Below are positions 2,638 through 58,122 of a DNA stretch of 64,000 bases, piece by piece. Numbering within the stretch: the stretch's first letter is position 1; every line of letters begins with the position of its first letter. The translations under genes and the position numbers were made by a program. The notes under the pieces were generated by a model. The model was given only the letters and a program-made list of their open reading frames with translations, did no database searches and was not told the DNA's origin. Origin of the DNA: Cyanidioschyzon merolae (Eukaryota); NCBI GenBank assembly GCA_000091205.1, contig AP006490.2. One strand, given 5' to 3'.

Positions 2638-4890
2638 TCAAAAGCGACCCTGGCTAATGTCGACTGGTGAGATGTCATTTGACGTTTTCTGTGCAAATGG
2701 GCCGCAGCCAGCTGTTTCCAGAAGCGACTCAGGGAAGAGCAAGTTATCCCAGCGTTGACGCATTGGTTCATACATGACCCGACAGATTGGTGTGAACGCT
2801 GCCTCTGGGCATTCCAGCGAATGCGACGATAAGTTCGATACTGACCCAGATCCACGCCTGGCAGGCATTTGGTGCGACTGGGGCCCTGCTACCACAGACG
2901 GTGAACACTGAGTCGGATGAACATGTGATACGAGTGTCTCCGGACACGGCGTGCATGGTACCGCTCTGCAGCAAGGGAGTTTCTCGCGCAGCTGCTTACA
3001 GCAGCTGCGCAACGCCTCTGCACCCACAGATAGTTGCTGCTGTGCAAGCAACGCAACATACCGCCTGCGCTCATCGTAGCCGCGTTCCCCCAGGGCTTCG
3101 ATCAAACATGCACTGGCGATAACGTCCGAGGAAAATTGCAAAATCGATAGATCTTGAAGGCAGTGATCAGCGTAACTCTCCGCGAGAGCCAGGAGTTGAT
3201 CGGGTGCGGGCCATGTGCCGCTGCGCACAGGTGTGAAACATGCATGCGGCGACTCCTGCTCGGGTATCTCCATATTTTCGGTCCGAGGACTGAGCGACGC
3301 CTCTATCAGTTGTGCTGGGAGACGTGTGCTCGTAGGCTGAGCGGGGTTCTCGATTGCGGGATCTGTTGTCGATGACCGAATCGCACCGGTAAGACATCGG
3401 GCTCTAACTGGTGTAGTCGCCTCCTCTACGCGCGAGTAATATCGGTTTTGTTCATTCCAAAGTTGGTCATTGGTGTCCTGGTACAAACGATAGAGCAGAT
3501 AGAGACAGCTGTAAATAGTTGGGCATTGGAGTTCCCAATGGAGCCAGTCCAAAACTTGCGGTTCAATGCTGCGAATGCGTCGCCAGATTGCCTGTGAGTC
3601 GCTTTCAGTTGAAACGGCGCCAGCTTGCTCCGCGTCCGATGCCTCGGGCTTGCGGCCTGGAAGCGCCTGCAGCTGGCACGGCAACTTGCTCGTGATAGGA
3701 CTTCTCCAGCTTCCCTGACGCAGAGGCGTTATCGTGGAGAAACTCCGCCAAGCAGCCGGCTCGAAGCACAAAAGCTTCGCCTGGAAAGACTTCAGCTGCT
3801 CGATTCTGCTGGTGCGTTGGTGTGCAGGCGCAGCGACCCCCGGGCAGTTGCCAGGCAATGAACTCGAGCGGTCGCTGGTCGAAGGCACACCACTCAGGTC
3901 TCCTGTGTCCTGCTCCAGGTGCAAGCTCTGGCTGAGCGACTTCAGCTGCCAGCCTGTGCGCTCTGGGTGCGGTGACGTCGTCGATGTTTTGCGCAGGAGC
4001 CACTCGAGGACGCGAACGACTGAAGCGCTCTCGTCTTTGATAGGGTATCGTTCCTGAACTTTTCCGGCGATTAAAAGGCAGCTGGCTGCGTGCTCGAGCC
4101 ATGCAGACAGGGTCACGTTTCCTCTGATGCAATCGAAGAAATGAACAGCGAGGCCTGCCGTCTCCCGCCGAAACTGCATCTCTGCGGCAGCAGCGAAAAG
4201 CCACCAAATAATGACGGATCGCGCTCCGCGCTCTTCTGCGGAAGACGCAAGTTGGTTACGCATGCTACGCTTCTCGCAGGCAGAGCGGCTTATGCGTGTT
4301 TCAGAAGGCACTGATCTGCATGCCATATGTGCATTCTCATGCGAATGGTGCCGTGCCTCCAAAAACATGTGCTGAGCTCGTTGTAGGAGCGAGCTTCCCG
4401 ACACATCCGCTGGGCCTATGCAGAACCAGTCGGATTCCAGTGCGCGTTTGACTGCACGAGCAGGGTTCGCACCTCCGTGCACAGATGCCGCGCGAGAACC
4501 ACATCCACTGGATCGTACACGTGAACGAGTTTTCGCTGGTGCAGGATTCGTTCCGGTTTCTTGCAGTTCTGTCCCACAAGCAAGTCTTCCAGCCTGATAA
4601 CGGTCTTCATGAGGGCCTTGACCAGGCATCAACGAGTCTCGCACGCGTCGCTCAGGTACCGGCCAGCAAGGATAGTCGATTCGGAACCCGGCTAAGGATG
4701 TCGCTGGGGTAGCGAGATGGCTCTGGACGGATACGATGCGTCCGCTCGGCTGTTGCCGTCCAGCGCTGGTAGTGCGCCCTCTGCGGCTCGTAAGCTTCAG
4801 CGGCGCCATTACAGGGGCGAGATCCGTCCGACGGCAGATACCCCTGCGCGGTCGCCCCGCTGGCGGTCTTCGTGCCGGCGATGTTCCCAT
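2638..4890 (-). CDS. hypothetical protein (750-codon ORF; the Arg-rich N-terminal ~100 aa suggests the real start is downstream of 4890)
   Basis: Longest ORF in this interval; all + strand ORFs here are 107 aa or shorter. ATG at 4888-4890. It is convergent with the 5..2203 gene. No domain recognised. Confidence 0.45.
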   Translation of the reverse strand: MGTSPARRPPAGRPRRGICRRTDLAPVMAPLKLTSRRGRTTSAGRQQPSGRIVSVQSHLATPATSLAGFRIDYPCWPVPERRVRDSLMPGQGPHEDRYQAGRLACGTELQETGTNPAPAKTRSRVRSSGCGSRAASVHGGANPARAVKRALESDWFCIGPADVSGSSLLQRAQHMFLEARHHSHENAHMACRSVPSETRISRSACEKRSMRNQLASSAEERGARSVIIWWLFAAAAEMQFRRETAGLAVHFFDCIRGNVTLSAWLEHAASCLLIAGKVQERYPIKDESASVVRVLEWLLRKTSTTSPHPERTGWQLKSLSQSLHLEQDTGDLSGVPSTSDRSSSLPGNCPGVAAPAHQRTSRIEQLKSFQAKLLCFEPAAWRSFSTITPLRQGSWRSPITSKLPCQLQALPGRKPEASDAEQAGAVSTESDSQAIWRRIRSIEPQVLDWLHWELQCPTIYSCLYLLYRLYQDTNDQLWNEQNRYYSRVEEATTPVRARCLTGAIRSSTTDPAIENPAQPTSTRLPAQLIEASLSPRTENMEIPEQESPHACFTPVRSGTWPAPDQLLALAESYADHCLQDLSILQFSSDVIASACLIEALGERGYDERRRYVALLAQQQLSVGAEALRSCCKQLREKLPCCRAVPCTPCPETLVSHVHPTQCSPSVVAGPQSHQMPARRGSGSVSNLSSHSLECPEAAFTPICRVMYEPMRQRWDNLLFPESLLETAGCGPFAQKTSNDISPVDISQGRF

Positions 4891-5622: not shown

Positions 5623-8115
<2,493 letters not shown>

Positions 8116-8317
8116 GCTTGCCCATACTCCAGCACGACATGTAAACGCTATGTTTCGTCTCGAGCAGCCTCGTTTACCAGCAGAGGAATCGCTGGGAACA
8201 CCAAATGCCGCGCCCGCGGTTTGCTTCCTCGTGTCCGATGCGCTATGCACGGGATGGCCTCTTGCAACCGCAGCCCGTTCGCCCGCACGCACTTGCCTCG
8301 CATCATCCCGTGCTAGT

Positions 8318-11300
8318 CTAAGTTCCCTCTTCGATCGGTGCCGGTATCGTTTCGAATAAACGTCCCGGCGGGCGCGCAATCAGCCGACCATCTTTTGCGT
8401 AGAGGAAAACAGCACTCAAATCATCACGCAGTCGAACGCGAACATGCACGGATTGAGGATCGTTCACGTCGCCGGAGCCGCCACCAGTCCACGCCTGCAG
8501 GACACCCAGGGCGCGTGACATCGCATGCGTGCTCCCGATGACGTGTCCGAATGCGTGCGCACTCGGTGCCCGCGATGCGTGCACATCGTGTGTCTGCACT
8601 GCTTCGGCTGCGTGGCGATCGAGCGACGGCGATGCCAAATCGATTTGGCGTTCTTCGCCCTGGAGATAGAGTATGACCTGCACATCGTGGGGCGCATGCA
8701 CCCCCGGTCCTGGCGCTGGTGGCCGACCCACATCGAGGCACGCTTGAATCCAGCCGATCGCTTGCACCGAGCCAGGGCGAAAGCAGGCCGCTGCCTCAAC
8801 CATGCTCGGCAACGGTGTCGATGCCTCGGCGTCATGATGACGCAGCGCCCAGGCGATCCAAACCACTGTATCCGCGTTGGCGGTGCGCGTGCCCCAGAGT
8901 TGGCCACAAGTCATACCCGCGAGCAAAAGACCGCGGACGAGGCCTCTCGGTAGATGGAGCTCGAATCGCTTGGCGAGATGCGGCATCGCCGAGATCGTCG
9001 CCTGTTCCGGGCGCTCGCCTCCGTACAGACTGCCACTGGTGTGTCCAGGCTCGACAACGTGCAGGTTTTCGAGAACGTCTGGGAGTCGTCGGTACAAGGA
9101 CAGTAGCCGTTGCTGTTCTGCATTCGTTACCGTGACCGACGACGTGCGGTACTCCTGCCGCTCAAATGGCGTGGTGGTCTCCACCGAAATCACATTGCCA
9201 TACCGGTCGAATGCGGCAACCGTCTTCGGTCGTGTGTGCTCCAGCACCTGCTCCGTTCCGTCGTCATCCCTGCCACCTGGCTGATCACCAGCGACATGGG
9301 CAGGGCGTAGACGCACGGGCACCAGCGACTGGAGCTCTAGTTCCAGACGGCGCCAGTCAGTCTCGGGAAGCGCGGGCCACAGCCAAGGTGTCGCGGAGCC
9401 CGCGCTCTCCTCGTCCGCCGACCGCTGAGGCCACACCAGCTGCAGGACACGCTCTGGCGCCCGGTCCAAGGCGTGGAGCAGGAGCAGGAAGCGCGCCGAC
9501 GCGATCCACACGGGCACATGCTCAAGCCAATCCGCGTAGCCACTCCAGATCGAAAGCTCGCTGGAGCGCGCAGTCTGAGTACGGTCGCGGATCTCCGGCA
9601 GCGCCATTAGCGCCTGCAGCGGCATGGCCGCCGCACCGGCACGCACAGGAATTTTGGCATACTCGGTGCCTGCCAAGAGCGTCTTCAACGGGTCCATGGA
9701 TGCGGTTTGTGCGAGCACGATGCCCCGCGGTAGCTCTTCAGTTGGCTGTGAACGGAGCATGGTTAAAACGTGCTCAGCGCATTTCCACTTGGCGAGTTGC
9801 GCTCGCCGGGTTTGGCCAGCCCACGTAGTCCGATGGACAATCTTCACAAACAGTCGCCCTGTCGACGTCTCCCATATCCAGATAACACCGTTCGCATGTG
9901 GCCTGTACGCAGTGCGATCATCCACGATCCAGAGGCGTTGCCGCCACAAGTCGCCGCCGCACCCCACGAGCAGAGGTATCGTATCGGAAGCCGATGTCGT
10001 AGTCGTCGCCGCCTGCAGCGTCTCGCTTTCCACCGTCTCCATGACGTAGAGCTGAAGCGCTTTGCGAATGCGTTCACGAAGGAGCGCGAGTGCCTGGTTA
10101 TGCATAAGCATCCGGCGCGATTCCTCGGTCACGATCGACACGACGCCCATGGCGCAGGCGTGCCCAAAAGCAGACCACTCGCCGTAGGCTAGATCAAAGA
10201 CCACGACCAGTCCATGGTGAGACGGGTACAGACTCGACGCTCCCGGTGCTGTATACGCCCGAAATTTTTGCGCTGCGTATTGCGCGGCATCATGGTCGTC
10301 GTAGTCGCCCCAACGGAGCTGGACATCAATCCAATAGATTTTGGCTGCCGCGTCGCTACCTGGCGGCCGCAGCGACGATCGCCCTTGACCGCCCGCATTG
10401 GATTCGAAGGCGACGGCCTCGTCCACGGGCAAGGCGTCACCGGACACGAGAATCGGTTGCTCGAAATCGATTCTAATATCCGCGCTGCTCCAGTGCATGC
10501 GATAAGACTTGCGCGGATGGATTCGTTCCTTCTGCACCGTGACCGCAACACGCGCCTCGCGCGAGCGCGCCCCCAGCTCTGTATCCAATGCTTTGCACAA
10601 ATCAAGTACCAGACTTTCATGAATACGCTGCCAGAGATGGCCTCGGAACACCTGCAAAAGGCTGATTTTGAGCGTCGAAAGCTTGCCGTACATGAAGATC
10701 CCCGTCAGATCGAGCTGGGCGCGGAAGCCCATGTACACCCGGCTGCGATTGATGGTCGGCGACCACCAGAGCGTGAATCGGCGATTGGGTATCTGGACAA
10801 GTCCAGATCGCTGCGCCCGCGTCAACGGCCTGCCCGCGAGTTTGTGCTCAAAGCCGTGGTCGCCCCAGACGATGCCTCGCCAATCTCGATACCCAGTTGC
10901 CGCAAAGAGCGTATGCGACAGGATTGCCGGCACGCCACCCAAAGCATGCGTAACCTGACTCCGGTAGTCGTCCAGCTCCCAAAGGCGTCCGTCGTGCATG
11001 AAATCTAGCCACCAGAGGGCGTTCTTCCGCCCGGTAACGTGCACGCGCAAGAGACTTCGCACACGATAGCCGTGATCGAGCGTCCACAACGCTCCTTGCG
11101 GGTGATAGCGTGCAGCCAAACGTGGCAGACCGCGATGCAGCCATGCTGGTGGCAGCAGTCGCCGATCGAGGTGTGCCCCAAATGCCTGCGCTCGTTCTTG
11201 AAGCTCGCGCTCCAGCAACTCCGCGTCAGCGATCTCATCGAGCCAGCTTGGTATGAAGGACCACAGCGACGGCACCGGGTCGTGGCCTATGTTCATCATT

Positions 11301-14300
11301 TCGAGGCCGCCGAGGCTGCGCGGAGCGTAGAACACCACCGGTGGGAAGCGCACCGGCATCTTCGAGTTCAGACCCAGCTTGATCCTGTTCTGTACGCGCT
11401 CTTGGGCATGCTGGACAAATTGCCGTACGGTTGGATCATTCGCTGCGACTTGGCGATACATGCCGGCAAAGTGGAGTGCTAACGCATTCCACCGGGCTGC
11501 CACGCGCGTAAATGGGGCATGTATGGTCGCCATCAACAGGCGCTGAACATCCAGCGCCCATCGCTGCAGCGCGTGCGGCGAGACGCGAACATACGCCACG
11601 GTGCGCCCGCTGGGCAATGACCAACGCATCCCTGCAGTTGCTGCTGCTTCTGATGCGGGTCGAGCGCTGCCCATGCCAGCAGGCAGGATTCTGTCAAAAC
11701 CGCTTGCGAGCATTCGCACCTCGAATCCAAACATTTCGAAGAAAAGACTGGGATTCTCGGGCCCTGACACGACGCTTACCGCAGTCTGGGATTCGGGCAT
11801 CTCGACGAGTGGTCGGAGCGCACTCACGCCCGGGCCAATGCGATCGCGAATCGCATCAAAGAGGGCTCGACCCAGCAGACAGTCGAAGGGGCGCAGGCGC
11901 ATGCGCACTGCACTCGGCCAGCACCGTCGACTGGGGTACAGCGCCGCGTCGAGAAGTGTCTCCCGCTCCGGATGGCGTTCGTAACGCTGCTCGAGACGCG
12001 TAACAGCCACACGCGCAGTCTCTTCGGGAACCCGAATCAGCGCATACAGTCGATCGAGAATTCGTTCGTAGGCAAGCAGCCGCATCGACGGGCAACTACG
12101 GGCGTCGTTGCGTCGCACGTCATGGTCGCCAGCGAGTTCGGCAGGCGGCCAGCTCGGCAGGCTCAGCAGGTCCGCGTCCATATCTGGTGCGCGAAACGCT
12201 AGATCTACCGCCGCCAGACCATAGAGCTGTTGCAGGAAACCTGAAAACTCCCAACCAGGCAGGATGCCAACCGACTGCGTATAACGCATGTCTTTGAACG
12301 TAATCGTTGCATTACAGCGGGCAATTAGATAATCAACGATTTCGGGTGCGAGCAACTGTCGCAGCAATCGATCCAGAACCAGCAAATCCGCGCGCTGAAA
12401 TAGCCCTGGCAATGGCGTTTGTATGAGGACCAGGAAGCTCTTGTTTGGTGCTGTTCCGAGTGTCCACAGATGAGGTATAGCATCCAAGCGTTCGACGAAA
12501 CGGAGGACGTGAACGGGCGGCAACTCATCGTCGCATGGCTGGACATGGGCCGGAAAAAGGCGCGTCTCCGTGGCCTTGTACCAGAGCCATTGATCGAGGA
12601 AAGCGTCCACCAGTCGCTCAAAGGAATCGATCCGATACACAGGCGTCAGGTCCGCGTCATCGTAGAAGCGGAGTTCCACCTGGTGACGCATTTGCACCGC
12701 CTGCAGTCGCTGCCGGATTCTATACAGCATCGCTGCAGGCGCTGCCTCTGCCTCTGTGACAAGTTCGCCGAGCCCCGGGGGACAGTGCTCGCCCTCCGTT
12801 TCCGGGCGGAGACGCTCGATCGCGAGTTGCAGTAATGCGGGAGCTAGCCCGGAATCCGCGTTATCTGCGGCGAACCAAGGCAATTGCCAAGGGCATGAGT
12901 CGGCAACACCTGCTTTCTCCAGGTACGTTGCGAATCTGTACAATATCGATGCTGCTTCGGTCGGCAACAGAAAGGGACCGTGCTCCAAATACTGCCGCTG
13001 ATGCGCCTGCTCATGGTGAACGGCAAGACGAGCAAGTCGCCCGTACATCTGGCGAACAAGTGCCTTATCCATGGAACGACCGCTTCGAAACGCAATCGCG
13101 AAGCGTCGAGCACCCTCTATCCACCATTGCGCCCGCTGCTGCACGTAATCCCGTACGAGTCTGTCGATTTCAGGGGGCATGTCTCGTACGTGCCACGGGA
13201 TATTGGCCTTCCAGCAGCGCCACGCCTGGTGCATATGCTGGAGAACACGCCTCGTATATAGTGGTTGACGCGCTGCTGGCAACAGTTGCCGAAGACGCGC
13301 TATAGTCTCCTGACGTAGCGCCACATCAAACTGCGACTCGAGTCGTTGCTTTGTGACGGTGCGTTGCGCCATGCGCAGCGGCTCGCGTCCTTCAAAATGG
13401 CGATTCAGCAGGTTACCCAACCACTGTTCGAGCAAGGGCATCAGGCCTCGAAGTAGGTGCACCCATTGCCGCCAGAGGGGTTGCCAGCAGGCCTTGCCGG
13501 GACCCGACCATCCGAAACGCTGATACATAAGATGCTTGAGGTCCTTGGTCGCATGGATTTGGCGCATAACCCGGTACTTGTAACGATAGAGACCTGTCAG
13601 TTCACCGATATGTGATTCGATGTACGTGATGCTGTCGGCGAGTTGAATGGCATCCGCGCCGAGACCCGCCCGATACCGCAGATGCACATCCACAATCAGC
13701 TTCACCATACGCATCCATTCGCGCATCAAATGAAACGCATTCCCGAAGCGAGACTGCTTTCGTTCTTTGGTCGTCAGCGTACGCAACGGCACGATCTGAA
13801 AATTGTAGTCCATGCTCAGAAAGAAGAATCGTTTTCGTCTCAAAAGTAGCAAAAACATCGATCGTGCAGCGTCGCACAGCCAGATGCCGACCTCCAACCA
13901 ATCCATACTGGTGCGATAAAAAAATCCCGATTGCCGCAACGTCCTCAGCAGATCCGGCCGTCGGTGCTGCTTCTCAGCTTCATCGCCAGCGTCTCCAGAG
14001 GCCGACTGGATCGCCAAAGTCGATTGCTTGCGCCCGCGACCACGTTCTTTTCGCAGGTAGCGAAGACGCTGTGCTTCTGCTTGTCGACAGCGTCGTTTCA
14101 ACAAGCTGTGGACTGCGGCAGTACTTTTCGGGCGCATGTAATGGACGCGCTCCAGTTGCCAGTACAACTCGCGTTCCATGTCGATATCCTGCATCCGCTT
14201 CCGTTTTCGAACACATCTGCCCTTATATGGACGCGGTGCATAGAGCAAATCGAGCCAGGCTCCGACGCGTTCGCCGCACGCGTCCAGATCGAAATCGCCC

Positions 14301-15505
14301 AGCGCCGGATGAGCGCGGTAGCGCGTACGCTGAGCGCTGGCGCCTTCGCTGGTGTCTGGGATGATGCGCTCGCCAGCGCCTTGTGCACTGCTGTGCAGGA
14401 GCGGTGCTAGCGTAGGCTGCCAGCTCCACGCACTCGGCCAGAGCGGGTGCGGTGGTGGTGTTGGCGGCCACATGAGCGGCCGCGGCGCATGGTGGTGCCA
14501 CAGCGGTTGCTCTGGGTTCGGGGTGCGTTCATCGAATGCGTCGTACAGGTACGGATAAGCCTGGTGCAGTTCTGGAGCGCGACGTTGACCAGGCAGGATG
14601 GAATGCATACCGAGCTCCGTGAAATCGTCCCAGTCCTCCTGGAGCAGATGCGCGCCCTCGCTGTGCAAAGAGCCGGCGTGTAGGCTCTTACGTCGAAGGT
14701 TTGCACGCTCATGCTCGAGTCGATGCACTCGTCGCAATGTCAAGCGATTTCGCAGATAGAACTGACTTGGATCCAGATCGTTCGGGTGTGGCGCCCACGG
14801 CAAACTCATCCGGTAGAGCGCAGCACGCGCCTCCGGTGTGTGCAAATTCGCGGCGAGCTGTTGGATTCGCTCGTATTCAGCTGCCGCGTCTGCATCGTTA
14901 GCAAATGGTGTCGGCAGCGTTCGATGGTAGACAAACTCGCGGAAGCTCGGTGACGGCTCATCGTCGTCGAACGCCGGCACTTGCAAACGTACGAAGGAAC
15001 GCGTCAGATCTCGCTGCCGCTTTCCGCTGCTTGTCGAGGCGACGTGTGCCTCATGACGACGACGGTCGAGGTAGGCGCACCAACGCGCCCATTGGGCCCG
15101 ATGAACGACCTCGGGGACTCGACGTGAACCCTCGATAAAAGCCAACGCACCAGTGTGATGGAAAATCACGGGTACAAACCGCGTTGGCTCCCAAGGGGCC
15201 GGCATGTGTTCCAGCCATTTGTACACCGCGTGCGGAAGGTAGCGGAGCGCGTTCAGTGTCAGTGCATCTGTGTTCCGGGAGATATGTCGGTCTCGGTTAC
15301 CACGGTGGGCACTGTTTTCCAGGTCATTTTCGCTTCGCTCCAACTCGATCCGTGCAAGACTCGCTAGTTTGCGGAAAATATCGGGGGAGGTATACGGTTT
15401 GAAAAATGGCTGATCCGCTCCGAAAGCACGGCGTGGCCGCTTTCGCTTCAGGTCCAGCGTCTGATCTGCCTCTTCGTCGCGTCCGAAAAACGCACGTTTG
15501 GGCAT
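8318..15505 (-). CDS. PRP8: pre-mRNA splicing factor PRP8 (U5 snRNP), unusually divergent, intronless
   Basis: PRP8 signature blocks are present: [39 protein letters not shown] (GPGCGFW in human), [63 protein letters not shown] and a C-terminal MPN-like tail. Roughly 50% identity to human PRP8 in the core, by eye. The track start 15514 is TTG; the first ATG is 15505. Ends with TAG at 8318-8320. Confidence 0.9.
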   Translation of the reverse strand: [2395 protein letters not shown]

Positions 15506-16739
15506 GAGATACAACGACTCGTACGAGGAAGGATGTGCTCGTGGATTACTTGCGACGAAACACGGAGTTCAGCGTGCTCGCTCTCAGCCTGAACTAGCAC
15601 TCTCCGCGTGTTTCCGCGGCGCTAAAACAATGCTCCAGACTAACGACTGATCATAATCATTATCAACCAGACGGCAATCCTTCGAACCGAACAGCGACAA
15701 AGTCGTTGACGCTCCAACAGGTCCTGGGAACGGCAGCAACTGCCGAGTGCTTTGCGCGACTTTGGAAGGCGCGACGCGTTCACAGAAACCGGCGCTGTAG
15801 CGTGCACCCCTCGCTCCAAGAAGAAAGTGTCAACTGCGACGCCTGGTTTGTGCGCAACCTTTTCGAGGTTCTGCACCACGAAAGAGTGCGTCTTATGCTG
15901 TTCAGAGGAAACTAGTTGCAGCAGCAGCCGCGGCAGTCGTCGGACGACAGGGTTTACAAAAAAGACGGAACTGCGACTTGTGTGCGACGCCCGCTGCCGC
16001 TCCGGTGGTGCTCAGAAAGTCGATGCGCGAGGTTGGTTCACGACGCTGCGGGGTCTGCAGGTGCTAGGCGATCTCGTATGCCGAAGAGCACCACGTCGGA
16101 TAGTAGTGCTGTCTCCAGCTGGCTCTCGCGTGGTTACCGACACACCAAGCCACTTTTTTAACGGATATGGTGTAGGCACCAGGTGACAGCGTAAACACTC
16201 GTTCGTTTGAACAGGAACACCAGCAGCACAGCTGCGCTGTGCTGTCAGGGAACCCAAGTTCCGCTCCCGTGGTGGTGCTTATCTTCATAGGTTTCCGACA
16301 CCCGTGTCAGTTAGAAATGGACCGCTGGACTACTCGCTGTGTGCCTGGTTTTCGATCTTGCGAATCTTTACTAGATATACAAGCACGACATTCACAGTGC
16401 GGCAATAATGGTATAGGAATTCATAGCTAGTTCTTCAGGATTCTTGGTCATGGTTTCCGAATGGGTTCTTCGACGTTTTGTTGCAGGAATTGCTCACGTT
16501 ACCGAAAACACGATGATTCGCGACGCCATCCAACAAGGTCTCTGACCATGATCGATATCATGATCCAATGTAAAGGTACAAGTCACAATTCTTCTCTTTT
16601 TCTCATGTGCAGTATGCTCGAATCACGCATGCCTCAACTCGTCGATGTTTGCGATACAAGGCAACTCGTAGGCACAGCAATTTGCACCGCTCGACTGACG
16701 CACGGGAAAAGCAATCGACTTCGCCCGGTGACGATTTAT

Positions 16740-17950
16740 TCACAAGCTCAGGCCGAAAGTTCACTGTAATCGCCACGTTCGATGATCGATTCGGTTCGGA
16801 ATACGAATCCTCCAGTCTTTATGGCCATCGAGCGAGCCGCATTCGAGAGCAGCAGCGTGATGCCTCTCACGGAATGTGCTCCCAGAGGCTTCCGTGTCTT
16901 CTGTTTGCATAGAAAGTGAGGCCCTGTGCTCGGACTTGCGTCATCGCAGCGAACACGTCCGGTAGAGTGCGTAGCGCCGCTTTGCATGCAGGAAGCATAG
17001 ACGGATTCAAAATTATCGACTTGTTCTCCAGCCTTGACTTTCCTTTCGGTCCGTGCCACATTATCAACAACATCGCATTCCATAAATCCATGATCAAATG
17101 GAATTACTGGTGCTTGCTTGTGTAGAAGATCCCGAACTAGCCGAGAGGTTATGCCCCAGCGAAGATCGCCATCGTCAGGGACGGCACCAAGCGCGAAAAC
17201 GGAAAAGGGCATCATGTGAAGCCTGATCTACCTCTTGAAGGGCATGGACAGAGCGGTGAAGCAAACGATCATGCGCTGCTAGGTAGCATTCGAAAGAGAA
17301 GATGTGGTCGAAGTCTTGGAACACTTGACCGCAGTCACATGTAACCGTTGCAAAGGGCGCAACGAAGCTTTTTACAAACAAGATCGACATAGCCCAGGAT
17401 GCGCGTAGATTGCAACTGGCGCATGTACAAGACCTGCGTTGGCAACAGCCGGGACTTACGAACTCTGGACTTGCACACTGCGAGCAGCATTCTGCGACTG
17501 CTGACGACGGAGCATGAGCGAGGTGAAAACCCAGCGTATTGAAAGCTGAGCATAAGAGAGAGGAGGCGGAAAGCGTCGCGGAAGCAAGGCCTGCAAAGCT
17601 TGTGTTGATGAAACTTGGAAAATGCCCAAGCATGCGCCTGCACGCCAGTCTCAGCAGAGTGCACCATTAGCATTTCATTCTGAATCCAGCGTACGGCATC
17701 CCGCAGCGCGTTAGCGCTCGTTGCACATGGCGATGAATGACGGCCATCGCTGTTCATTGTCAAAAGACTAGATCCGCGCGCTGCGTCGCAACCAGTCGGT
17801 CCCTGGGCCGCACCTATGGTGCGACGATGCATACCCTGAGCTTTCAGTGCACACAGATAGGCTCTAGATCCCCGCACGGTATCGGTGATGGATAAGCAGC
17901 GACGCAAAACGCTCGGAATACGAAGGATGAAGCTTTGCCTGCCTCGCATT
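16740..17950 (-). mobile_element. TnpB/Fanzor-like element, family 2, copy a (degenerate, with frameshifts); inverted relative to copy b at 26.1-27.4 kb
   Basis: Homologous to 26140-27355 at both nucleotide (~75%) and protein level. The segment contains the helix before RuvC-II (DRLLHRSVHALQEVDQ, cf. TnpB [20 protein letters not shown]), a WG segment (ALGAVPDDGDLRWGI, cf. LALSISDAGWGEF), a GSRAYLCALKAQGMHRRTI block (cf. TnpB GSARYGKAKTKLARIHKRI), and a C-terminal LLLSNAARSMAIKTGG where the DRDxNAAxNI Asp is replaced. A ~25-nt 3-prime tail after the stop (gtgaactttcggcctgagct) is conserved between the two copies. Confidence 0.4.
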
Positions 17951-18620
17951 CCAAATACTTCCCATCATGTGGACGCAGTTGAGCGTTTTTTGGACAGCGA
18001 CCAACGTCACCAGGAACCCGGTATGCTGTAGAACTGAGTGTGAGCAGGGTGCATTACGTGTCAGCTACCTGCGATGTTCAGACCGCGTGAGAGCCGTCCA
18101 GAGCAGCGCACCTGCGTATCGTACGATACTCGTTGCCGATCCCAAATGCTATGCAAATGCTGTAGATATGAAGCATGCGGTTCACTTCCATAGCGACATG
18201 TCGTATGGAAAAAGATGACGTCTGCACGCTGGTTTTTCCTCATATACTGCAGTGCCCTCAAATCGTTCACCTTGCACAAAGGCGTACCGATCTGAACGCC
18301 CCAGGCGAGCAGATCGAGCTCGACGCTGCCCAGCAGCTAATGATTCCCGTTTCAGACATGGTTCGCATTCCGCTGAAGCGGGTGTGTGGATGCTGTGCGA
18401 TCCCTCGTGTTGGGTGACGCGCTGCAACACGCCCGGTATTCGAAAACAAAGCGTACTCTTCGTACAGCCTTGGTTGGCTCGGGCTGAGCGGCGGTACGCG
18501 TCGCTGCAGACGGCGTGCGTCGCTGGACTCCCGGTTGCGACTGTGGCACTGCGGAGGCGGCTTTCACTGTGCGCTGGCCAGCGAACTAGCGTATTTTGGT
18601 GCAACGCACAGCGCATCAAC

Positions 18621-20165
18621 ATGTCCCGTAAGCTCAAGTCCGTAGCGACTGCCTCCACCGTCGAACCGGAACGAGTTCGCGTGGCCAACACGAAGCCGGT
18701 CTACCCAGACAGGCGCTACGTGCTCTATTGGGTACAGGCGTCGCCGCGGATTCTCGAAAATCACGCTCTGGAATATGCTATTGAACGAGCGAACGCTTTG
18801 AACAAACCATTGGTCGCGTGCTTTGGTGTGACGGATAAGTATCCCGAGGCGAATCTTCGCCACTACCGTTTCCTACTCGAAGGACTCTCTGAACTCTGGG
18901 AGGATCTGCGCAAGAAGCGAGGCGTGGCGTTTCATGTCTTGTACGGCCCACCGGATGAGGTGGCTGCACAATGTGCTCGCGGAGCTGCCTGTGAGGTCGT
19001 CACGGACCTCGGTTACATGCGCATCCAGAGGCAGTGGCGAGAGCGGCTCGCCCAGGCCCTGGACTGCCGCTTGACGCTCGTGGAATCCGAAGCCGTGGTA
19101 CCAGTAGAGCTTGCCTCAGAGAAACACGAGTTTGCAGCTCGCACGCTACGTCCACGAATCTGGGCTTACATTCAAAGGTTTTGCGTGCCGCAAGCGCCGC
19201 AAACATTGCACCACTCGCAGCTGGAAATACCAGTTGATCACGGACCGTATTCGGAGCTGTTCGAAGAGTGCCCTATTGACGACAGCGAAGCGCCAGAACG
19301 CATTGATGCGGCACTAGAGCGTCTCGAGTCGCTAGATCGATCGGTGCCGGCAGTCTCACGTTACTTTCGGGGCGGTACCAGTGAGGCTCTGCGGCGTTTG
19401 GAGATTTTCTGCAGTACAAAGTTGTCCTTTTATGGCGAAGGGCGCAACCAGCCCCAGAGTGACCATACGAGCTGCCTGTCTGCGTACTTGCATTTCGGTC
19501 AGATATCTCCTATCACCATAGCATTGGCGGTTTGGTCACGAAAAGAGACTCCCCGAGAGTCCCGTGATGCCTTCATTGAAGAGTTGATTGTGCGGCGCGA
19601 GTTATCGTTCAATCACTGTTGGTATCGTCCGGATGACTACGATAAACTGGATAGTCTGCCCGAGTGGGTCCATCGAACGTACGCGGAACACCGCGATGAT
19701 CCACGCGAGCACTTGTACGATCTCGCGAGTCTCGAGCAAGCGCAAACGCATGATCCGTACTGGAACGCTGCACAAAAGGAAATGGTTCTCACGGGCCGCA
19801 TGCACGGCATGATGCGCATGTACTGGGCTAAGAAAGTGATCGAATGGACGCCATCCTGGGAATGTGCCTTTGACTGGCTGATTTATCTCAACAACAAGTA
19901 CGAGCTGGATGGTCGTGATGCGAACTCATTTGTTGGGGTGCTGTGGTCCTTCGGTTTACATGATCGAGCGCATGCCGAGCGAGCGATTTTTGGCAAGCTT
20001 CGCTGGATGTCGCGAGATGGCCTCGAACGCAAGTTTCCCATGCATGCGTACCTTGAGCGGATACGGGCCCTCGACAATGGCGCTTCGTGGGAGGATGCGG
20101 TATCTAGTGCAGCCTCGGCGACGAAAGATGATGGAAAGAAGCGCATCAAGCGGCCCCGTCGGTAG
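18621..20165 (+). CDS. class II CPD photolyase (deoxyribodipyrimidine photolyase)
   Basis: Shows the class II photolyase blocks YVLYWVQASPRILENHALEYAI, SAYLHFGQISP, FIEELIVRRELSFNHCWY, MHGMMRMYWAKKVIEWT, YLNNKYELDGRDANSFVGVLW and FGKLRWMS. The track ORF 18252 has an implausible Arg-rich leader; the first sensible ATG is 18621 (MSRKLKS...), giving ~514 aa. Confidence 0.9.
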   Translation: MSRKLKSVATASTVEPERVRVANTKPVYPDRRYVLYWVQASPRILENHALEYAIERANALNKPLVACFGVTDKYPEANLRHYRFLLEGLSELWEDLRKKRGVAFHVLYGPPDEVAAQCARGAACEVVTDLGYMRIQRQWRERLAQALDCRLTLVESEAVVPVELASEKHEFAARTLRPRIWAYIQRFCVPQAPQTLHHSQLEIPVDHGPYSELFEECPIDDSEAPERIDAALERLESLDRSVPAVSRYFRGGTSEALRRLEIFCSTKLSFYGEGRNQPQSDHTSCLSAYLHFGQISPITIALAVWSRKETPRESRDAFIEELIVRRELSFNHCWYRPDDYDKLDSLPEWVHRTYAEHRDDPREHLYDLASLEQAQTHDPYWNAAQKEMVLTGRMHGMMRMYWAKKVIEWTPSWECAFDWLIYLNNKYELDGRDANSFVGVLWSFGLHDRAHAERAIFGKLRWMSRDGLERKFPMHAYLERIRALDNGASWEDAVSSAASATKDDGKKRIKRPRR

Positions 20166-20569
20166 GGTGCTCGAAGCGCTCGCTGACTCGCGTCGCGCTG
20201 CGGGTGATGATGCCTGCCCCCAGCGTTTGCTTCGAAGCCCTACGTAATGGAAGTGTATCACAGCAAAAGTCGTCAAGCGGAATGGGAAACGCACCAAGCG
20301 CCGTGAGATATGAAAACGTCTTCATCGTGCGGCATCAGGGAATCGAGCTTGACTCGCTCGGAAGCAGGGATCCTGATGGTTACCAGGCTACTGCACACAC
20401 GACTTGCGCTGAGGGCACCTAATCGGAATCTCGTTCTGCAGCACTAGATGCCAGATGAGGCACCTGCGTGTTTCTCAGGACGTCAAGCGTGTAGCTGTGC
20501 ACTCCACTTGAGCGTCACAGCCTCGGGAACGGTTACCGTACCCATGCGGAAAATGTTTCGGGGGTCGGT

Positions 20570-22260: not shown

Positions 22261-23760
22261 GGATGATCTGAGCTTACAGACTTTCAATTCTATTGCGTTT
22301 CGCCCCCGCTGCAGTGTATATGAGGACGTCGAAATAACTGTGCAACTTACCGTATATATCGTAGGTAAATTGTCTGCAGGATATATTCATTACTGAACAG
22401 CTCATGGAGGACTGCGTTCATCCTTCAGGTCAGTCGCACAATAATACGCAGATGGTTGATGAACACTGAAAGTAACAAGTAGGTAAGCACCGCACCAAAA
22501 ACTGGTATTCTCAAAGACTGCTAGCGATCAGTGGTAGAGAGCGACTCTTCGCTCACCGTACGGAAAGTTGGAGCGACGATAGAAGCCACTGCGACCGTCT
22601 CTGTTTCTCAACAGCTTGTTCACATTGCCCTGAAAACGCTGGGATACATTCGCAAAAGAAGACTCCATTCATTCACGGCCACCTTCCACCGGAATTGTAA
22701 CGACAGCGCTCCGGGTACCCAGCGATCGGTATGAAGCACAGGGTCGCCGGGTTTGCTTTTCCATTCGTTGAGACTTTCTTCGGACGCAACGGTCGGAGTA
22801 TGTATGGGTATTCGCGAAGCAGGGCCCCCGTTGTAAATACGATCGAAATCGAAGAGAACGAGGATATCTTCATCAGTCTTAGCTGCAGTGGATTCATTTG
22901 ACGGCCTCAGTTTCGCACCTACGGAAGGCGCATACAACAGAACCCTCTTCGTCGGATCATCGAAGACTTTTCTCAGACGTCTGGTGACGTCCTTCGATTC
23001 CACAATGTTGCATTTCACCATTCCCCTTGCATTCGAGTTTTTACTGAATCTTTCGGGATAGAGCTGCTTTCCATTCCTCCGTGCGCTCCTTGATTCAACG
23101 CCATCGAGGGAGCATTTTGTATCGTGAAACGTAATGATCGCTTTCCTTGCCGAATCGCTGAAGCGTCCGGCGTACGGTGCCACACCAGGGGCGCATTTCG
23201 TCTTTTTTCCACACGTCCTTCTCTGTCCATGCAGGTTCTCACCTTAGTGCATCAAGAAGTGTGTTCGTTTTGAAGAAATACAATATCCAAGAGATTAGCT
23301 GGGGTGTACACTCCAGAAGGTCGAGATAGAGAGTGGCCAGCGAAGCGCTTCGGCGATAGAAAAGCACGAAGAGGTGGCAGAGCAGCAAACGGCACAGAGA
23401 GAACCTGTTCGAGGAATCTTTGCATTAGTGCGTCCAACCAGAGGCAATCAACGTACGGAGTTCGTGGACCAAGACTTCAACGCCGTCATCCATATCAAAC
23501 GATGCGTGGTGCGGATGACGAGATTCGCGGACCTGATACGATCCAACTTTATGGGCCAGCCGCTCAGGCTCAACGTGTACAAAGAGAAATTGGAATCGAT
23601 AGCAGGGGTCCGGTCTTTAACGACTGGGAGGCGTCTGCACGTCGGTATTCATTTACCCTCCATAACTGTGAAACATTTAGTGTTTCACTGACTCTACAGA
23701 AGACGGCAATGGACTTGGGCCTGTGTCCCCTTAAGGATCGATTGCATTGAAGCATGGGTC
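22260..23760 (+). pseudogene. TnpB/Fanzor-like element, family 1, copy A2: 5-prime-truncated unit carrying the C-terminal RuvC-III region; head-to-head with A1
   Basis: Nucleotide-collinear with 38170-39600. ORF 23374-23691 carries RTEFVDQDFNAVIHIKRC (RuvC-III-like, Asp at 23473-23475) and a conserved tail ...RSNFMGQPLRLNVYKEKL. Frameshifts relative to copy B2. Confidence 0.55.
23374..23691 (+). pseudogene. RuvC-III-bearing C-terminal fragment of family-1 TnpB/Fanzor-like gene (copy A2)
   Basis: Shows EFVDQDFNAVIHI, which fits the TnpB DRDxNAAxNI pattern. Confidence 0.5.
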
Positions 23761-54819: not shown

Positions 54820-57800
54820 TTAGCGTACCCATAGACATTCGGGACGAACCTCATAGAAAAGGACGTAGGCATCCTTGCTGGTGATCCGTGCATTGGACGC
54901 GTCCGGTTCCGTGTCCTCGCAAACCGTTCTACATTCCACGGAAACTGACTCGTCATCGAACACGAACCACTCTGGATATCGACCGTGCCGCACATGTGCG
55001 ATGTAATGGCCTTGGTCGATAGATCCGATGTGACTTACGTACCCGATCAAGTCGTAGAGAATTCGTGGCCCAGAATCCTGCAGTTCGTGGTGCATACAAC
55101 GGTGCGGATGCTGTGCTGCCATCGCTTCCGAGCCAACACCGTTCCTTCGCCGCACGGACGCACTCATAAAAGGGGTCATGTCGAGCCCTCGTACCGGGAA
55201 AATAACATCGACATCGAGTTTGCTCGGCGTTACCTGGCTACCGCTACCACTCTGTTTGAAGCGCTTCAGATGGAAACAGATGACAGGTGGAAGCTGTTTC
55301 AGTGAGAGCTGCTTCGTGCGAATAGGTGGCACGTCACCAGCAGACCGGGCCTCTTCCTCACACGAACAGGATGAGGTTGCACCAATCGCATCCAGCGGCT
55401 CCTCCTGAGTAAATCGCTGCAAACAACCTGTGAGCGTATTCGGCAGCGATCGTGCCGCTGACGATGTTGTTGTCGCTGTTGCTGCTGTTGCAGCCGCACT
55501 GCCTGCATGCTCGTCTTCGGGACGAATGAGGTCCAGAGAGATGTCCAAAAACTCCTCGTAACGCTGTGAAGATGTCAAACATTTTGTACAGCAAATCTCA
55601 CTTTGAATGAGACCCGCAAAGGTTCGATGCGCCAGGCACGAACAACGCAGCGACAGTTGCGCTGCTACCGACTGCAAGGCCAACTGCTCCTCGGAAGCGC
55701 TCTCTACGAATCGCCGTTGAAGCTGGAGGCGACGTTCCCCATCGTCGAGCGTAGGCGTCCAGTGCGCATGCATGAGGTTCAGAGCCGACAGCAGGTACTC
55801 GTGAGCGTCATGCTGAGCGTACGTAGCGAGCGGCTCCATAAACTTCCAGGTAACATCGAGGAGCTTCTGCGGCACGAGCACTGGCACTTTTAACGGATAG
55901 CGCACGTATTGCGCTTTCTGGAAGTGCTCTGGCATGGGCTCTCGGTCCGTTTGTTTGTCCGATAGGAGCGCTCCCTTGGTAGCGCTGGTACTATGCGTTC
56001 GGGCAGCGCTTGATTTCTGATCGTTTGGGCGCGTTCGCTCCCGGCGCTTTCGTTTTCCAGAGCCGCGCAGCCTATCATCGGCTTCAGTAGTAACATCTGA
56101 TAGGGTATCCTTCTTTTCCAAAGCAGACATGCGCTCCGTTCCACGACGACGTCTCCCTTGGAGCGGCTTCGACTGGTTCAGAAGCGCGATTTCGTGTGGA
56201 CGTGCTGCTTCAGCAGACGGCGTTCGAGCATGTCGCGCTGCTCGTATGGATCCCGACATAGACGACGAGGACGACGACAACGACAGCGCTAACGAAGACG
56301 ACTCGGATGTGGAGGAAGATGAGGCATGCGCTGTGCCCGGCCTGCCGCTATCCACAAACTCCTTGGCAGCGCTTGAGGCACTACGAACAGACCCAGACGC
56401 GCCAGTATGCAGATTTGACAGCTGCGTCTCTCTGTCCGATAGCGCCGCTTCTGCGACAGGTCGCCAGTAGCCATGCGACTGTGCCTGGCTCAGAGACGCC
56501 AGGTACGACTGCGTCATCAGTGCATCTAATGCACAATTGAAGCAGGTCCGCTCCGGGTCCTGGCTCTGAGCCAAAGCCTCAACACGGCGCAGACAAAACG
56601 ACTGATGAAGATCTCCAAGAAAAAAGTTGCGCACCGGGCATAAACGCATGAAAACCTGGAGCACAGCAGACATGTAACAAGTGTTGCCGAGGTTGGTGAG
56701 GCCCACCACACCACCATACCGGCATCGTGCCGTTCCAGTGCACGTCGATAGTCCCGAATGCGCACAACTCGTTTCTGACGCGTCTCGGACTCGCGTCGCT
56801 ACGGAAGCATTCGCAACGTTTCCGCCGGTCGCCATCGTCTGGTGTTCCTGATCCATTCTCCGAGGCGGTAATCGCGAATCATGACGGTACGCGTGCGCCA
56901 TCGATGCCATCCAGTCATCTCGGAACTCATCATTGTCTTCGCACTCGTTGTAGGCCCAGTCGGTGAAATGTGCAATGGCGTGTTTCTCGCGCCAGCTGAG
57001 TACCCACGAAGGTTCGCTTGGCCTTGCCGCAAAGAAAAGCAGCTGGAGTTTGCGTTCTTTGCGCCACAGATCCCGATGCCGCCGTGCCAGCACGCGGTTT
57101 TGTGACTGCTGACAGGTACCTGGTAGTCGCTCTGCGATGCCGTCTGCTCGAATCGAGGCATCGACCGCGAGGCCGCCTTCCAGCGTCGAAAGCGGCACGT
57201 TCGGAAGAGCCTGCATGGACCCGCTGAACCGCAACAGCATAGAACGAGCAAGTGAACGAGCCTGTTCCCTCCAGATCGCTCCTTCGATCAACGGGTCTGG
57301 CACGACTCGATGCAATGCAACGATTTCGGCTGATCGGCTGTGAGTCACCGCTTTGGTGTCTCGATCATCGTGGGGGCCGCTGCTCACGGATGACTTTGCT
57401 TTCTTTCGTTTTGGCATTTGGGAGGCACCTGTCGATTCTAGCGTCTCCATGGTTACATGATCATCGTCGGATGCTGTATGATCTCCACCTGATCCTCGTC
57501 GACGGAGTGCCTGAATGATCGGCATTGCGTCGTAGATGGCGAACGAGCCGTCCAGGCGCATCCAGAATCGAAACACACCTCCCGAGTTCATGTTGAACTG
57601 GACAATATGTTGCGCACAAGAGATGATCACGCGATGCAGGCAAAAGTATAGATCATCATAGGGCCGACTGCACGTCACATCGAAACAGTGCAGCTGGGGT
57701 ACGGCCGGCGAGTGCCCCGGACGCCCAAAGACCGTTGACCACGTGTGCAAGAAACGCGCAATGACCCGTACCGCAGTTATTCCATTCGTTTGTCCGGGGT

Positions 57801-58122
57801 TCTTGTTACTCAAATCCAAAGCCTGGAACTTGAAAAGCTGCATAGCTCGGTCCTCATCGCGCAAGGGTTGCCGCTGCAGCAGATTCCAGAGCGCTACACA
57901 GAGCGCACTTTGCGAAGCAGTAGCAGAAGTGGTCAAGGTTTCCACTGCTGACTCTTCCGGTTCTGATACTGGCGGATACAACTCTGAGCAGTCTGCAGCG
58001 TTGAAGCGGACGGATTCAGAGTCCTTGTTCCAGACTTGCGGGCGTGCCTGGCTCGGTACCCCAGTATTCGCTGCCCGATTCGATGCCGTCGTCGGCGCCA
58101 CTGGTGTCGCCGCAGCATCCAT
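54820..58122 (-). CDS. ubiquitin carboxyl-terminal hydrolase (USP family deubiquitinase)
   Basis: Cys box GLTNLGNTCYMSAVLQVF and His box YDLIGYVSHIGSIDQGHYIAHVRHGRYPEWFVFDDESVSV. It has a long low-complexity insert between the boxes. ATG is the rc of 58120-58122. Confidence 0.85.
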   Translation of the reverse strand: MDAAATPVAPTTASNRAANTGVPSQARPQVWNKDSESVRFNAADCSELYPPVSEPEESAVETLTTSATASQSALCVALWNLLQRQPLRDEDRAMQLFKFQALDLSNKNPGQTNGITAVRVIARFLHTWSTVFGRPGHSPAVPQLHCFDVTCSRPYDDLYFCLHRVIISCAQHIVQFNMNSGGVFRFWMRLDGSFAIYDAMPIIQALRRRGSGGDHTASDDDHVTMETLESTGASQMPKRKKAKSSVSSGPHDDRDTKAVTHSRSAEIVALHRVVPDPLIEGAIWREQARSLARSMLLRFSGSMQALPNVPLSTLEGGLAVDASIRADGIAERLPGTCQQSQNRVLARRHRDLWRKERKLQLLFFAARPSEPSWVLSWREKHAIAHFTDWAYNECEDNDEFRDDWMASMAHAYRHDSRLPPRRMDQEHQTMATGGNVANASVATRVRDASETSCAHSGLSTCTGTARCRYGGVVGLTNLGNTCYMSAVLQVFMRLCPVRNFFLGDLHQSFCLRRVEALAQSQDPERTCFNCALDALMTQSYLASLSQAQSHGYWRPVAEAALSDRETQLSNLHTGASGSVRSASSAAKEFVDSGRPGTAHASSSSTSESSSLALSLSSSSSSMSGSIRAARHARTPSAEAARPHEIALLNQSKPLQGRRRRGTERMSALEKKDTLSDVTTEADDRLRGSGKRKRRERTRPNDQKSSAARTHSTSATKGALLSDKQTDREPMPEHFQKAQYVRYPLKVPVLVPQKLLDVTWKFMEPLATYAQHDAHEYLLSALNLMHAHWTPTLDDGERRLQLQRRFVESASEEQLALQSVAAQLSLRCSCLAHRTFAGLIQSEICCTKCLTSSQRYEEFLDISLDLIRPEDEHAGSAAATAATATTTSSAARSLPNTLTGCLQRFTQEEPLDAIGATSSCSCEEEARSAGDVPPIRTKQLSLKQLPPVICFHLKRFKQSGSGSQVTPSKLDVDVIFPVRGLDMTPFMSASVRRRNGVGSEAMAAQHPHRCMHHELQDSGPRILYDLIGYVSHIGSIDQGHYIAHVRHGRYPEWFVFDDESVSVECRTVCEDTEPDASNARITSKDAYVLFYEVRPECLWVR

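What the first reader, a model, noticed from the sequence alone, without database searches (positions are those of the whole stretch)
8318..15505. Highly divergent, intronless PRP8 in an apparently intron-poor genome
PRP8 is normally among the most conserved eukaryotic proteins; the yeast and human core is ~80% identical. Here the catalytic-core blocks are recognisable but only ~50% identical to human, and the GPGCGFW motif reads GPGKACW. Together with the absence of obvious introns in every large gene of the window, this points to a lineage with a reduced or fast-evolving spliceosome. The Fanzor-like genes would then be candidate intron carriers, if their frame breaks are introns.
Basis: partly seen in the sequence, partly recalled or inferred. 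Interest (0 to 1): 0.55.

Follow-up and report, generated by a model that had tools for sequence, protein, structure and literature searches.

The report
Known divergent PRP8 of Cyanidioschyzon merolae

Summary
Window 8318..15505 (minus strand) is one uninterrupted 2395-codon ORF with six PRP8-specific Pfam domains in canonical order. It reads GPGKACW where canonical PRP8 has GPG-x-GFW. It is 32-34% identical overall to canonical PRP8 representatives, 38-41% in the core, and up to 61% in the best 100-residue blocks.

The protein is residue-for-residue identical to XP_005536120.1/BAM79834.1, [quoted passage not shown]. Residues 1848-2065 match PDB 6NQI at 218 of 218 positions.

C. merolae is the textbook reduced-spliceosome organism: 27 to 39 introns, about 43 core splicing proteins and no U1 snRNP. 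The missing RNase H-domain toggle hairpin and the missing Jab1 tail of its Prp8 are published. So the main inference is correct and already known.

The Fanzor side idea fails. The Fanzor-like stretches are two decayed repeat copies, about 70% identical, that differ by many 1-5 nt indels. They have in-frame stops and lack the near-invariant ACTAACC branch site.

Two things noticed in passing:
- The C-terminal Jab1/MPN region is undetectable by profile methods.
- One consensus-perfect candidate intron lies upstream of the ubiquitin-protease gene, but it is absent from relatives.

The parts
8318..15505 (-). Complete single-exon PRP8 coding sequence (ATG at 15505, stop TAG at 8320-8318), 2395 aa. 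Identical to XP_005536120.1/BAM79834.1 of C. merolae 10D.
14876..15262 (-). PRO8NT domain (aa 82-210)
   Evidence: E = 5e-22
12971..14257 (-). PROCN domain (aa 417-845). Includes one of the best-conserved blocks, aa 601-700, 61% identical to a canonical PRP8.
13484..13504 (-). GPGKACW (aa 668-674), the variant of canonical GPG-x-GFW. The relative P0002 has GPGKSFW.
12200..12391 (-). PRP8 RRM_4 domain (aa 1039-1102)
11267..11602 (-). U5 snRNA binding site 2 domain (aa 1302-1413)
10580..11035 (-). U6 snRNA-interacting domain (aa 1491-1642); second best-conserved block
9311..9964 (-). RNase H-like domain (aa 1848-2065), 218 of 218 residues identical to PDB 6NQI chain A. The beta-hairpin 'toggle' insertion of canonical PRP8 is missing at ...TAYRPH|ANG... 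(aa 1865-1873, nt 9887-9913).
   Evidence: PMC10158995
8321..9310 (-). C-terminal 330 aa, where canonical PRP8 has PROCT and Jab1/MPN. No profile-level similarity is detectable. In an anchored alignment, motif-level matches are ELHLPRGLVRGLL (8924-8962), QAIGWIQ (8744-8764) and LRDDLSAVFL (8402-8431). About 40 residues of the canonical C-terminal tail are absent.

Best explanation
The region is the nuclear, single-exon PRP8 gene of Cyanidioschyzon merolae strain 10D, on a 739,753-bp chromosome record and next to gene CMH165C.

**Function (established PRP8 biology; the C. merolae spliceosome work is cited from the literature).** It encodes the U5 snRNP scaffold protein that cradles the U2/U5/U6 RNA catalytic centre of the spliceosome. 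In this alga it serves a minimal spliceosome of about 43 core proteins with no U1 snRNP, which removes only about 39 introns carrying near-invariant GUAAGU, ACUAACC and AG signals.

**Shown here.**
- The gene's identity and its intact ORF.
- A complete N-terminal, RT/linker, endonuclease-like and RNase H-like domain series.
- Retention of most universally invariant residues.
- Loss of the RNase H-domain beta-hairpin.
- Extreme divergence of the Jab1/MPN region and truncation of its tail.

**Inferred.** With few, uniform substrates and many partner proteins lost, constraint on the surfaces and regulatory elements of PRP8 relaxed, while the RNA-binding catalytic scaffold stayed under purifying selection.
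For: **Identity and intactness**
- The sequence is identical to BAM79834.1/XP_005536120.1, 'pre-mRNA splicing factor PRP8 [Cyanidioschyzon merolae strain 10D]'.
- Residues 1848-2065 match PDB 6NQI at 218 of 218 positions.
- Six PRP8 Pfam domains lie in canonical order, and all spliceosomal PRP8 chains match at E = 0.

**Purifying selection**
- 87 of 97 columns that are invariant in 16 diverse PRP8 representatives are kept. So are 246 of 296 near-invariant columns.
- An orthologue at 62% identity is also a single ORF, in the same photolyase-PRP8-GyrB synteny.

**The divergence is not simply lineage-wide**
- The Rac-like GTPase of the same window is 61% identical to human Rac1. PRP8 is 32-34% identical to canonical PRP8.

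**Structural losses**
- The hairpin deletion and the missing tail are visible in the alignment. They match published statements in PMC10158995.

**Organism biology**
- PMC4829280 and bioRxiv 10.64898/2026.05.17.725761.

**Intron signals in the window**
- They occur at chance level: ACTAACC 1 observed against 3.0 expected, GTAAGT 12 against 14.1.
Against: Nothing contradicts the gene's identity. The weaker points concern the inferred cause.
- Only one comparator protein (Rac) was used to argue that the acceleration is specific to PRP8.
- PRP8 of the intron-rich sister lineage Galdieria could not be identified by name among the unnamed representatives.
- No relative-rate test was run.
- Whether the C-terminal region still folds as an MPN domain is unresolved. 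There was no Pfam or PDB hit, hhalign gave 1.5% probability, and both AlphaFold models had pLDDT of about 31.
Confidence: 0.97

Rival explanations
1. The divergence of PRP8 reflects only a generally long, fast-evolving Cyanidiophyceae branch. On this view it has nothing to do with intron loss or spliceosome reduction.
For: - Only one same-window comparator was examined.
- Between C. merolae and its relative, PRP8 at 62% identity is actually better conserved than the ubiquitin protease at 49%. PRP8 is therefore not the fastest-evolving gene within the group.
Against: - The Rac-like GTPase keeps 61% identity to human, whereas PRP8 is 32-34% identical to canonical PRP8 representatives. PRP8 is usually among the most conserved eukaryotic proteins, about 61% identical between yeast and human (from my own knowledge).
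- Specific regulatory elements are deleted rather than merely substituted: the toggle hairpin and the Jab1 tail.
- These deletions coincide with published loss of the proteins that contact them (PMC10158995).
Confidence: 0.12
2. The gene is a decaying relic: a PRP8 that no longer works in splicing, in a genome on its way to losing introns altogether.
For: - Identity to canonical PRP8 is very low.
- The MPN region is unrecognisable.
- Splicing efficiency is reported as only 42-50% in these algae.
Against: - The 2395-codon ORF is intact.
- About 90% of universally invariant positions are retained.
- An intact syntenic orthologue exists at 62% identity, with conserved blocks even in the C-terminal region.
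- The literature documents active splicing, snRNPs and a well-folded crystallised RNase H-like domain.
Confidence: 0.01

Closest known systems
C. merolae 10D Prp8 (XP_005536120.1 / BAM79834.1; RNase H-like domain crystal structure PDB 6NQI, Garside et al. 2019 as cited in PMC10158995)
   Same: It is the same molecule. All 2395 residues are identical, and 218 of 218 residues match the crystallised domain.
   Different: Nothing.
Canonical spliceosomal PRP8 (human PRPF8, e.g. PDB 3JCR chain A; S. cerevisiae Prp8, e.g. 3JCM chain A)
   Same: - Same length class.
- Same order of PRO8NT, PROCN, RRM_4, U5-binding, U6-binding and RNase H-like domains.
- 87 of 97 universally invariant positions kept.
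   Different: - Only 32-34% global and 38-41% core identity to canonical PRP8 representatives.
- GPGKACW instead of GPG-x-GFW.
- The RNase H-domain beta-hairpin is deleted.
- PROCT and Jab1/MPN are not detectable by Pfam, PDB search or hhalign, and the C-terminal tail is absent.
PRP8 of a related alga, P0002. It comes from hot-spring metagenome 3300061725 and run SRR17356570. It is probably from a related Cyanidioschyzonales alga such as Cyanidiococcus; the organism is my inference and is not given by the tools.
   Same: - 62% identity overall and 71% in the core.
- Single ORF in the same photolyase-PRP8-GyrB synteny.
- Same hairpin deletion, the same lack of JAB and PROCT Pfam hits, and a similar GPGKSFW motif.
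   Different: - 2421 aa, with a slightly longer C-terminus.
- The C-terminal region is only 41% identical.
Other highly divergent PRP8s among the 50%-identity cluster representatives, and the trypanosomatid-type chain 9IF7_LA
   Same: They are also far from canonical PRP8. The other divergent cluster representatives (P0024 to P0037) are 35-46% identical to the human-like P0022. 9IF7 scores 1680-1850 bits against canonical queries.
   Different: - C. merolae is more divergent than all but one of them (P0049): 32% identity to P0022, and 1120 bits against human PRP8.
- The organisms behind the unnamed representatives were not determined.

Membership tests
PRP8 (spliceosomal U5 snRNP protein) | PRP8-specific domains PRO8NT, PROCN, RRM_4, U5_2-snRNA_bdg, U6-snRNA_bdg and domain IV (RNase H-like), in that order in one polypeptide of about 2300-2400 aa | tested here: met
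   all six score far above their curated cut-offs and lie in canonical order. E = 0 to every full-length PRP8 chain in the PDB.
PRP8 (spliceosomal U5 snRNP protein) | Retention of residues invariant across eukaryotic PRP8s | tested here: met
   87 of 97 invariant columns and 246 of 296 near-invariant columns (83%) are kept. Other representatives keep 86-98%, apart from one outlier at 64%.
PRP8 (spliceosomal U5 snRNP protein) | C-terminal PROCT plus Jab1/MPN domain (PF08084, PF01398), which binds and regulates Brr2 | tested here: inconclusive
   - No Pfam hit at E <= 10 and no PRP8 hit in the PDB.
- hhalign against canonical C-termini gives 1.5% probability.
- AlphaFold pLDDT is 31 in both runs.
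- The anchored full-length alignment lines up ELHLPRGLVRGLL, QAIGWIQ and LRDDLSAVFL with canonical MPN motifs at compatible spacing.
- The region is conserved against the relative.
- The literature treats it as a Jab1 domain without its tail.
PRP8 (spliceosomal U5 snRNP protein) | Beta-hairpin ('toggle loop') insertion in the RNase H-like domain. This is a conserved feature of canonical PRP8 but is not required for membership. | tested here: not met
   about 13 aligned residues are missing at TAYRPH|ANG in both C. merolae and P0002. This agrees with the published crystal structure.
PRP8 (spliceosomal U5 snRNP protein) | Physical presence in the U5 snRNP or spliceosome, and a requirement for splicing | not testable with these tools
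   Literature only: PMC4829280 and PMC10158995 list Prp8 among the retained U5 proteins of C. merolae.
Fanzor1 / TnpB-like element (CMe-1A), for the side claim | RuvC-like nuclease motifs (D...E...D) with a zinc finger in a TnpB-like protein | tested here: inconclusive
   - GADPG, IDEFRTS and NRDFTAAIN-type motifs can be read in copy B across two reading frames, with in-frame stops.
- There was no Pfam or PDB hit.
- Bao and Jurka report about 150 CMe-1A copies in this genome.
C. merolae spliceosomal intron, for the frame breaks and the candidate at 58136-58711 | GUAAGU 5' splice site, near-invariant ACUAACC branch site, AG 3' splice site; conservation in sister species; spliced reads | tested here: inconclusive
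   - Fanzor-like copies: neither has ACTAACC, so the test is not met.
- Candidate upstream of the ubiquitin protease: all three signals are present and the junction is in frame.
- Against that candidate: the motifs occur at chance frequency and are absent from the syntenic regions of relatives.
- RNA evidence is not available here.

The most novel reading that the evidence does not exclude
The C-terminal approximately 330 residues of C. merolae Prp8 may no longer be a functional Jab1/MPN module. In that case Brr2 would be recruited and regulated in this minimal spliceosome by a structurally different, lineage-specific domain. The region is conserved within the group (blocks such as AWTGGGSGD and FDRYGNVI-VETTTP) but is unrecognisable by Pfam, PDB, profile-profile and AlphaFold tests. 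A second, smaller possibility is that 58136-58711 (minus strand) is a real, C. merolae-specific intron that adds a 31-codon first exon to the ubiquitin-protease gene.
Probability: 0.12. Interest if true: 0.35.

Novelty: already known. Interest (0 to 1): 0.1.

Why it matters
C. merolae is studied as a natural minimal spliceosome, and its Prp8 shows which parts of the most conserved spliceosomal protein can be dispensed with. All of that is already published: the genome annotation, spliceosome inventories, a crystal structure of the RNase H-like domain, and homology modelling of the complexes.

For the scan, the value is as a positive control. A reader working from raw sequence correctly deduced an intron-poor lineage with a reduced spliceosome from the state of PRP8 alone.

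This analysis adds only modest material:
- Quantitative divergence figures.
- The finding that the Jab1/MPN region escapes all profile methods.
- A clear rejection of the idea that the Fanzor frame breaks are introns.

Tried and rejected
1. **Full-length search of the representative library.** I reran it with the core, aa 512-1700.
2. **Rfam at gathering thresholds and ARAGORN on the whole window.** Neither found an snRNA, tRNA or any other RNA family.
3. **C-terminal Jab1/MPN detection.** All of these were negative or uninformative, so no fold search was run on the models:
   - Pfam at E <= 10
   - PDB phmmer (only spurious weak hits)
   - hhalign of a two-sequence profile against 15 canonical C-termini
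   - word-indexed homologue search (no hits at all)
   - two AlphaFold runs with 2- and 3-sequence alignments (pLDDT about 31)
4. **Formal Fanzor/TnpB assignment.** Pfam and PDB searches on the ORF pieces and on a stitched translation gave nothing. Polyubiquitin matches are artefacts of repeated weak hits. Identification rests on motifs read by eye and on the literature.
5. **Candidate intron upstream of the ubiquitin protease.**
   - The spliced protein is not in the 15-billion-sequence collection.
   - Relatives lack the signals.
   - The supplementary intron tables of the 2026 preprint are not held.
   - A literature search for the locus tag I recalled for this gene (CMH168C, not confirmed by any tool) found nothing.
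6. **Rejected readings.** Pseudogene or relic PRP8, and a bacterial or contaminant origin. All neighbouring genes are eukaryotic, and the four checked match C. merolae records exactly.
Full report
**What is at the coordinates**

The minus strand of window 8318..15514 is a single open reading frame. The first ATG is at 15505 and the stop codon TAG is at 8320-8318, giving 2395 codons with no interruption.

Pfam finds six PRP8-specific families in canonical order, all far above their curated cut-offs:
- PRO8NT, aa 82-210
- PROCN, aa 417-845, E = 1e-121
- RRM_4, aa 1039-1102
- U5_2-snRNA_bdg, aa 1302-1413
- U6-snRNA_bdg, aa 1491-1642
- PRP8_domainIV, aa 1871-2062

Every full-length PRP8 chain of solved spliceosomes matches at E = 0.

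**Whose gene it is**

An exact-sequence look-up shows the 2395-aa translation is identical to BAM79834.1/XP_005536120.1. That record is named 'pre-mRNA splicing factor PRP8 [Cyanidioschyzon merolae strain 10D]' and sits on a 739,753-bp record. Residues 1848-2065 are 218 of 218 identical to PDB 6NQI chain A, the crystallised RNase H-like domain.

Three other large ORFs of the window also equal deposited single-exon C. merolae proteins exactly:
- the cyclin-like CYME_CMH165C
- 'similar to nucleoporin 155kD'
- 'similar to ubiquitin specific protease'

The remaining large ORFs are ordinary eukaryotic genes in single ORFs: GyrB, photolyase, a YceD-domain protein, a mitochondrial carrier, an M14 peptidase, a longin-synaptobrevin, a histidine phosphatase, RanBP1 and a Rac-like GTPase. 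GC content of about 55% fits the published value. The window is therefore a piece of a C. merolae 10D nuclear chromosome.

**How divergent the protein is**

- In global MAFFT alignments the protein is 34% identical to canonical representative P0003. It is 32% identical to P0022, the representative closest to human PRP8.
- In the core (aa 512-1700) identity is 38-41%.
- An exhaustive HMMER scan of 1.84 billion cluster representatives found no full-length protein above 41% identity to that core.
- Identity per 100 residues peaks at 61% (aa 601-700 and 1501-1600). It falls to about 12-17% over the last 300 residues.
- The bit score against human PRP8 is 1120, against 3043-3974 for three canonical representatives.

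The GPGKACW motif is at aa 668-674 (nt 13484-13504). Other PRP8s read GPG-[C/V/N/A]-GFW, so the real change is GF to AC. The closest relative has GPGKSFW.

**Still a constrained, working PRP8**

- 87 of 97 alignment columns that are invariant in 16 diverse PRP8 representatives are kept, as are 246 of 296 near-invariant columns.
- A 62%-identical orthologue (P0002) comes from a hot-spring metagenome and an SRA assembly. It is also a single ORF and lies in the same photolyase-PRP8-GyrB arrangement.
- The Rac-like GTPase of the same window is 61% identical to human Rac1. The low identity of PRP8 is therefore not simply saturation of the whole lineage. This is a single comparator, so the specificity argument remains an inference.

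**Structural peculiarities**

The anchored multiple alignment shows that the beta-hairpin of the RNase H-like domain is deleted in C. merolae and in P0002, at ...TAYRPH|ANG.... This is the published 'toggle loop' absence, confirmed by the 6NQI structure (PMC10158995).

Canonical PRP8 ends with PROCT and a Jab1/MPN domain. The C. merolae C-terminal 330 residues give none of the expected signals:
- no Pfam hit at E <= 10
- no PRP8 hit in the PDB
- 1.5% hhalign probability against canonical C-termini
- two AlphaFold attempts with the only available shallow alignments reached pLDDT of only about 31

Three observations nevertheless point to a degenerate MPN domain:
- The region has conserved blocks against the relative.
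- In the full-length alignment ELHLPRGLVRGLL, QAIGWIQ and LRDDLSAVFL fall on canonical MPN motifs at compatible spacing.
- About 40 residues of the canonical tail are missing.

This agrees with the published statement that the CmJab1 C-terminal tail is absent. Whether the MPN fold survives is unresolved here.

**The interpretation**

- C. merolae was annotated with 27 introns, has about 43 core splicing proteins, and lacks U1 snRNA and all U1 proteins (PMC4829280).
- A 2026 preprint counts 39 introns. It reports 42-50% splicing efficiency, near-invariant GUAAGU, ACUAACC and AG signals, and U1 loss shared with Cyanidiococcus and Cyanidium.
- A 2023 review discusses Prp8 specifically: a conserved N-terminal domain and RNA core, with the toggle loop and Jab1 tail lost together with their partner proteins.

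The finding is therefore correct and already known.

**The Fanzor aside**

The window holds two related, rearranged repeat copies at about 20561-23646 and 38231-42901.
- Over about 1.75 kb they are 69.9% identical at the DNA level and differ by many 1, 2, 4 and 5 nt indels.
- tblastx identity is similar in all six frames.
- In copy B, RuvC-like motifs (GADPG, IDEFRTS, NRDFTAAIN) can be read across two different frames, with in-frame stop codons.
- Neither Pfam nor the PDB gave a formal hit.
- Neither copy contains ACTAACC.
- By the run of consecutive protein accession numbers, no annotated protein lies there. This is an inference together with the ORF count.
- Bao and Jurka describe about 150 copies of the Fanzor1 element CMe-1A in this genome, each about 80% identical to the consensus.

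The frame breaks are mutational decay, not introns.

**Introns in the window**

ACTAACC occurs once against 3.0 expected. GTAAGT occurs 12 times against 14.1 expected.

The single ACTAACC (58157-58151, minus strand) lies 30 nt upstream of the ubiquitin-protease start codon. A GTAAGT lies 554 nt upstream of it, at 58711-58706. Using the AG at 58137-58136, a 92-nt putative first exon (ATG at 58803) would join in frame. The intron would be phase 2, with an immediate in-frame TAA if retained. That pattern is described as typical in the preprint.

Against it:
- The deposited protein starts at 58122.
- The spliced product is not in the sequence collection.
- The syntenic upstream regions of the 49%-identical orthologues lack GTAAGT, ACTAACC and even CTAAC.

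I regard it as an unproven candidate that RNA-seq would settle.

**Verdict**

- The main interpretation is supported and the Fanzor-intron aside is rejected.
- Novelty: already known.
- Interest is low, apart from the unresolved state of the Jab1/MPN region and the candidate intron.

Noticed in passing
window 58136-58803, minus strand: Candidate spliceosomal intron just upstream of the ubiquitin-protease gene (ORF 54820..58122, annotated as a single exon).
- Signals: GTAAGT at 58711-58706, the window's only ACTAACC at 58157-58151, and AG at 58137-58136.
- A 92-nt putative exon 1 (ATG at 58803) would join in frame. The intron would be phase 2, with an in-frame TAA if retained.
- Against it: the motif counts are at chance level, the signals are absent from the syntenic regions of relatives (L003-L006), and the spliced protein is not in the databases.
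   Followed up: partly
window 20561-23646 and 38231-42901: Two rearranged, decayed copies of a repeat, about 70% identical at the DNA level, with many small indels and in-frame stops. Copy B carries readable RuvC-like motifs. They are most likely diverged copies of the Fanzor1 element CMe-1A described by Bao and Jurka (2013). There was no Pfam or PDB hit, and apparently no protein is annotated there.
   Followed up: partly
window 58307-58492: A perfect-register tandem duplication of a 93-nt unit (97% identical), lying inside the candidate intron and intergenic region upstream of the ubiquitin-protease gene.
   Followed up: no
window 8321-9310, minus strand (PRP8 aa 2066-2395): The PROCT and Jab1/MPN part of PRP8 cannot be detected by Pfam, PDB sequence search, profile-profile alignment or shallow-alignment AlphaFold. 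It is nevertheless conserved in blocks against the 62%-identical orthologue (for example AWTGGGSGD and FDRYGNVI-VETTTP). The same two Pfam families are also missing from the orthologue's precomputed domain list.
   Followed up: partly
window 5650-20165 and 47267-60737; loci L001-L006: Gene order is conserved with the relatives found in hot-spring metagenomes and SRA assemblies: GyrB-PRP8-photolyase, and Nup155-ubiquitin protease-small GTPase. Protein identities are about 49-62%. All of these genes are single ORFs there too.
   Followed up: partly
window 15506-18250: About 2.7 kb between PRP8 and the photolyase gene has only short ORFs. One of them (17335-17949, minus strand) was scanned and has no Pfam hit; 16748-17215 and 17175-17633 (both minus strand) were not scanned. 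By accession numbering there is no annotated protein here. Its nature (promoters, non-coding RNA or repeat remnant) was not examined.
   Followed up: no
window 40001-44000: Locally low GC (about 0.50) with strong positive GC skew (0.16) and AT skew (0.12). It coincides with Fanzor-like copy B and the region upstream of the synaptobrevin gene.
   Followed up: no
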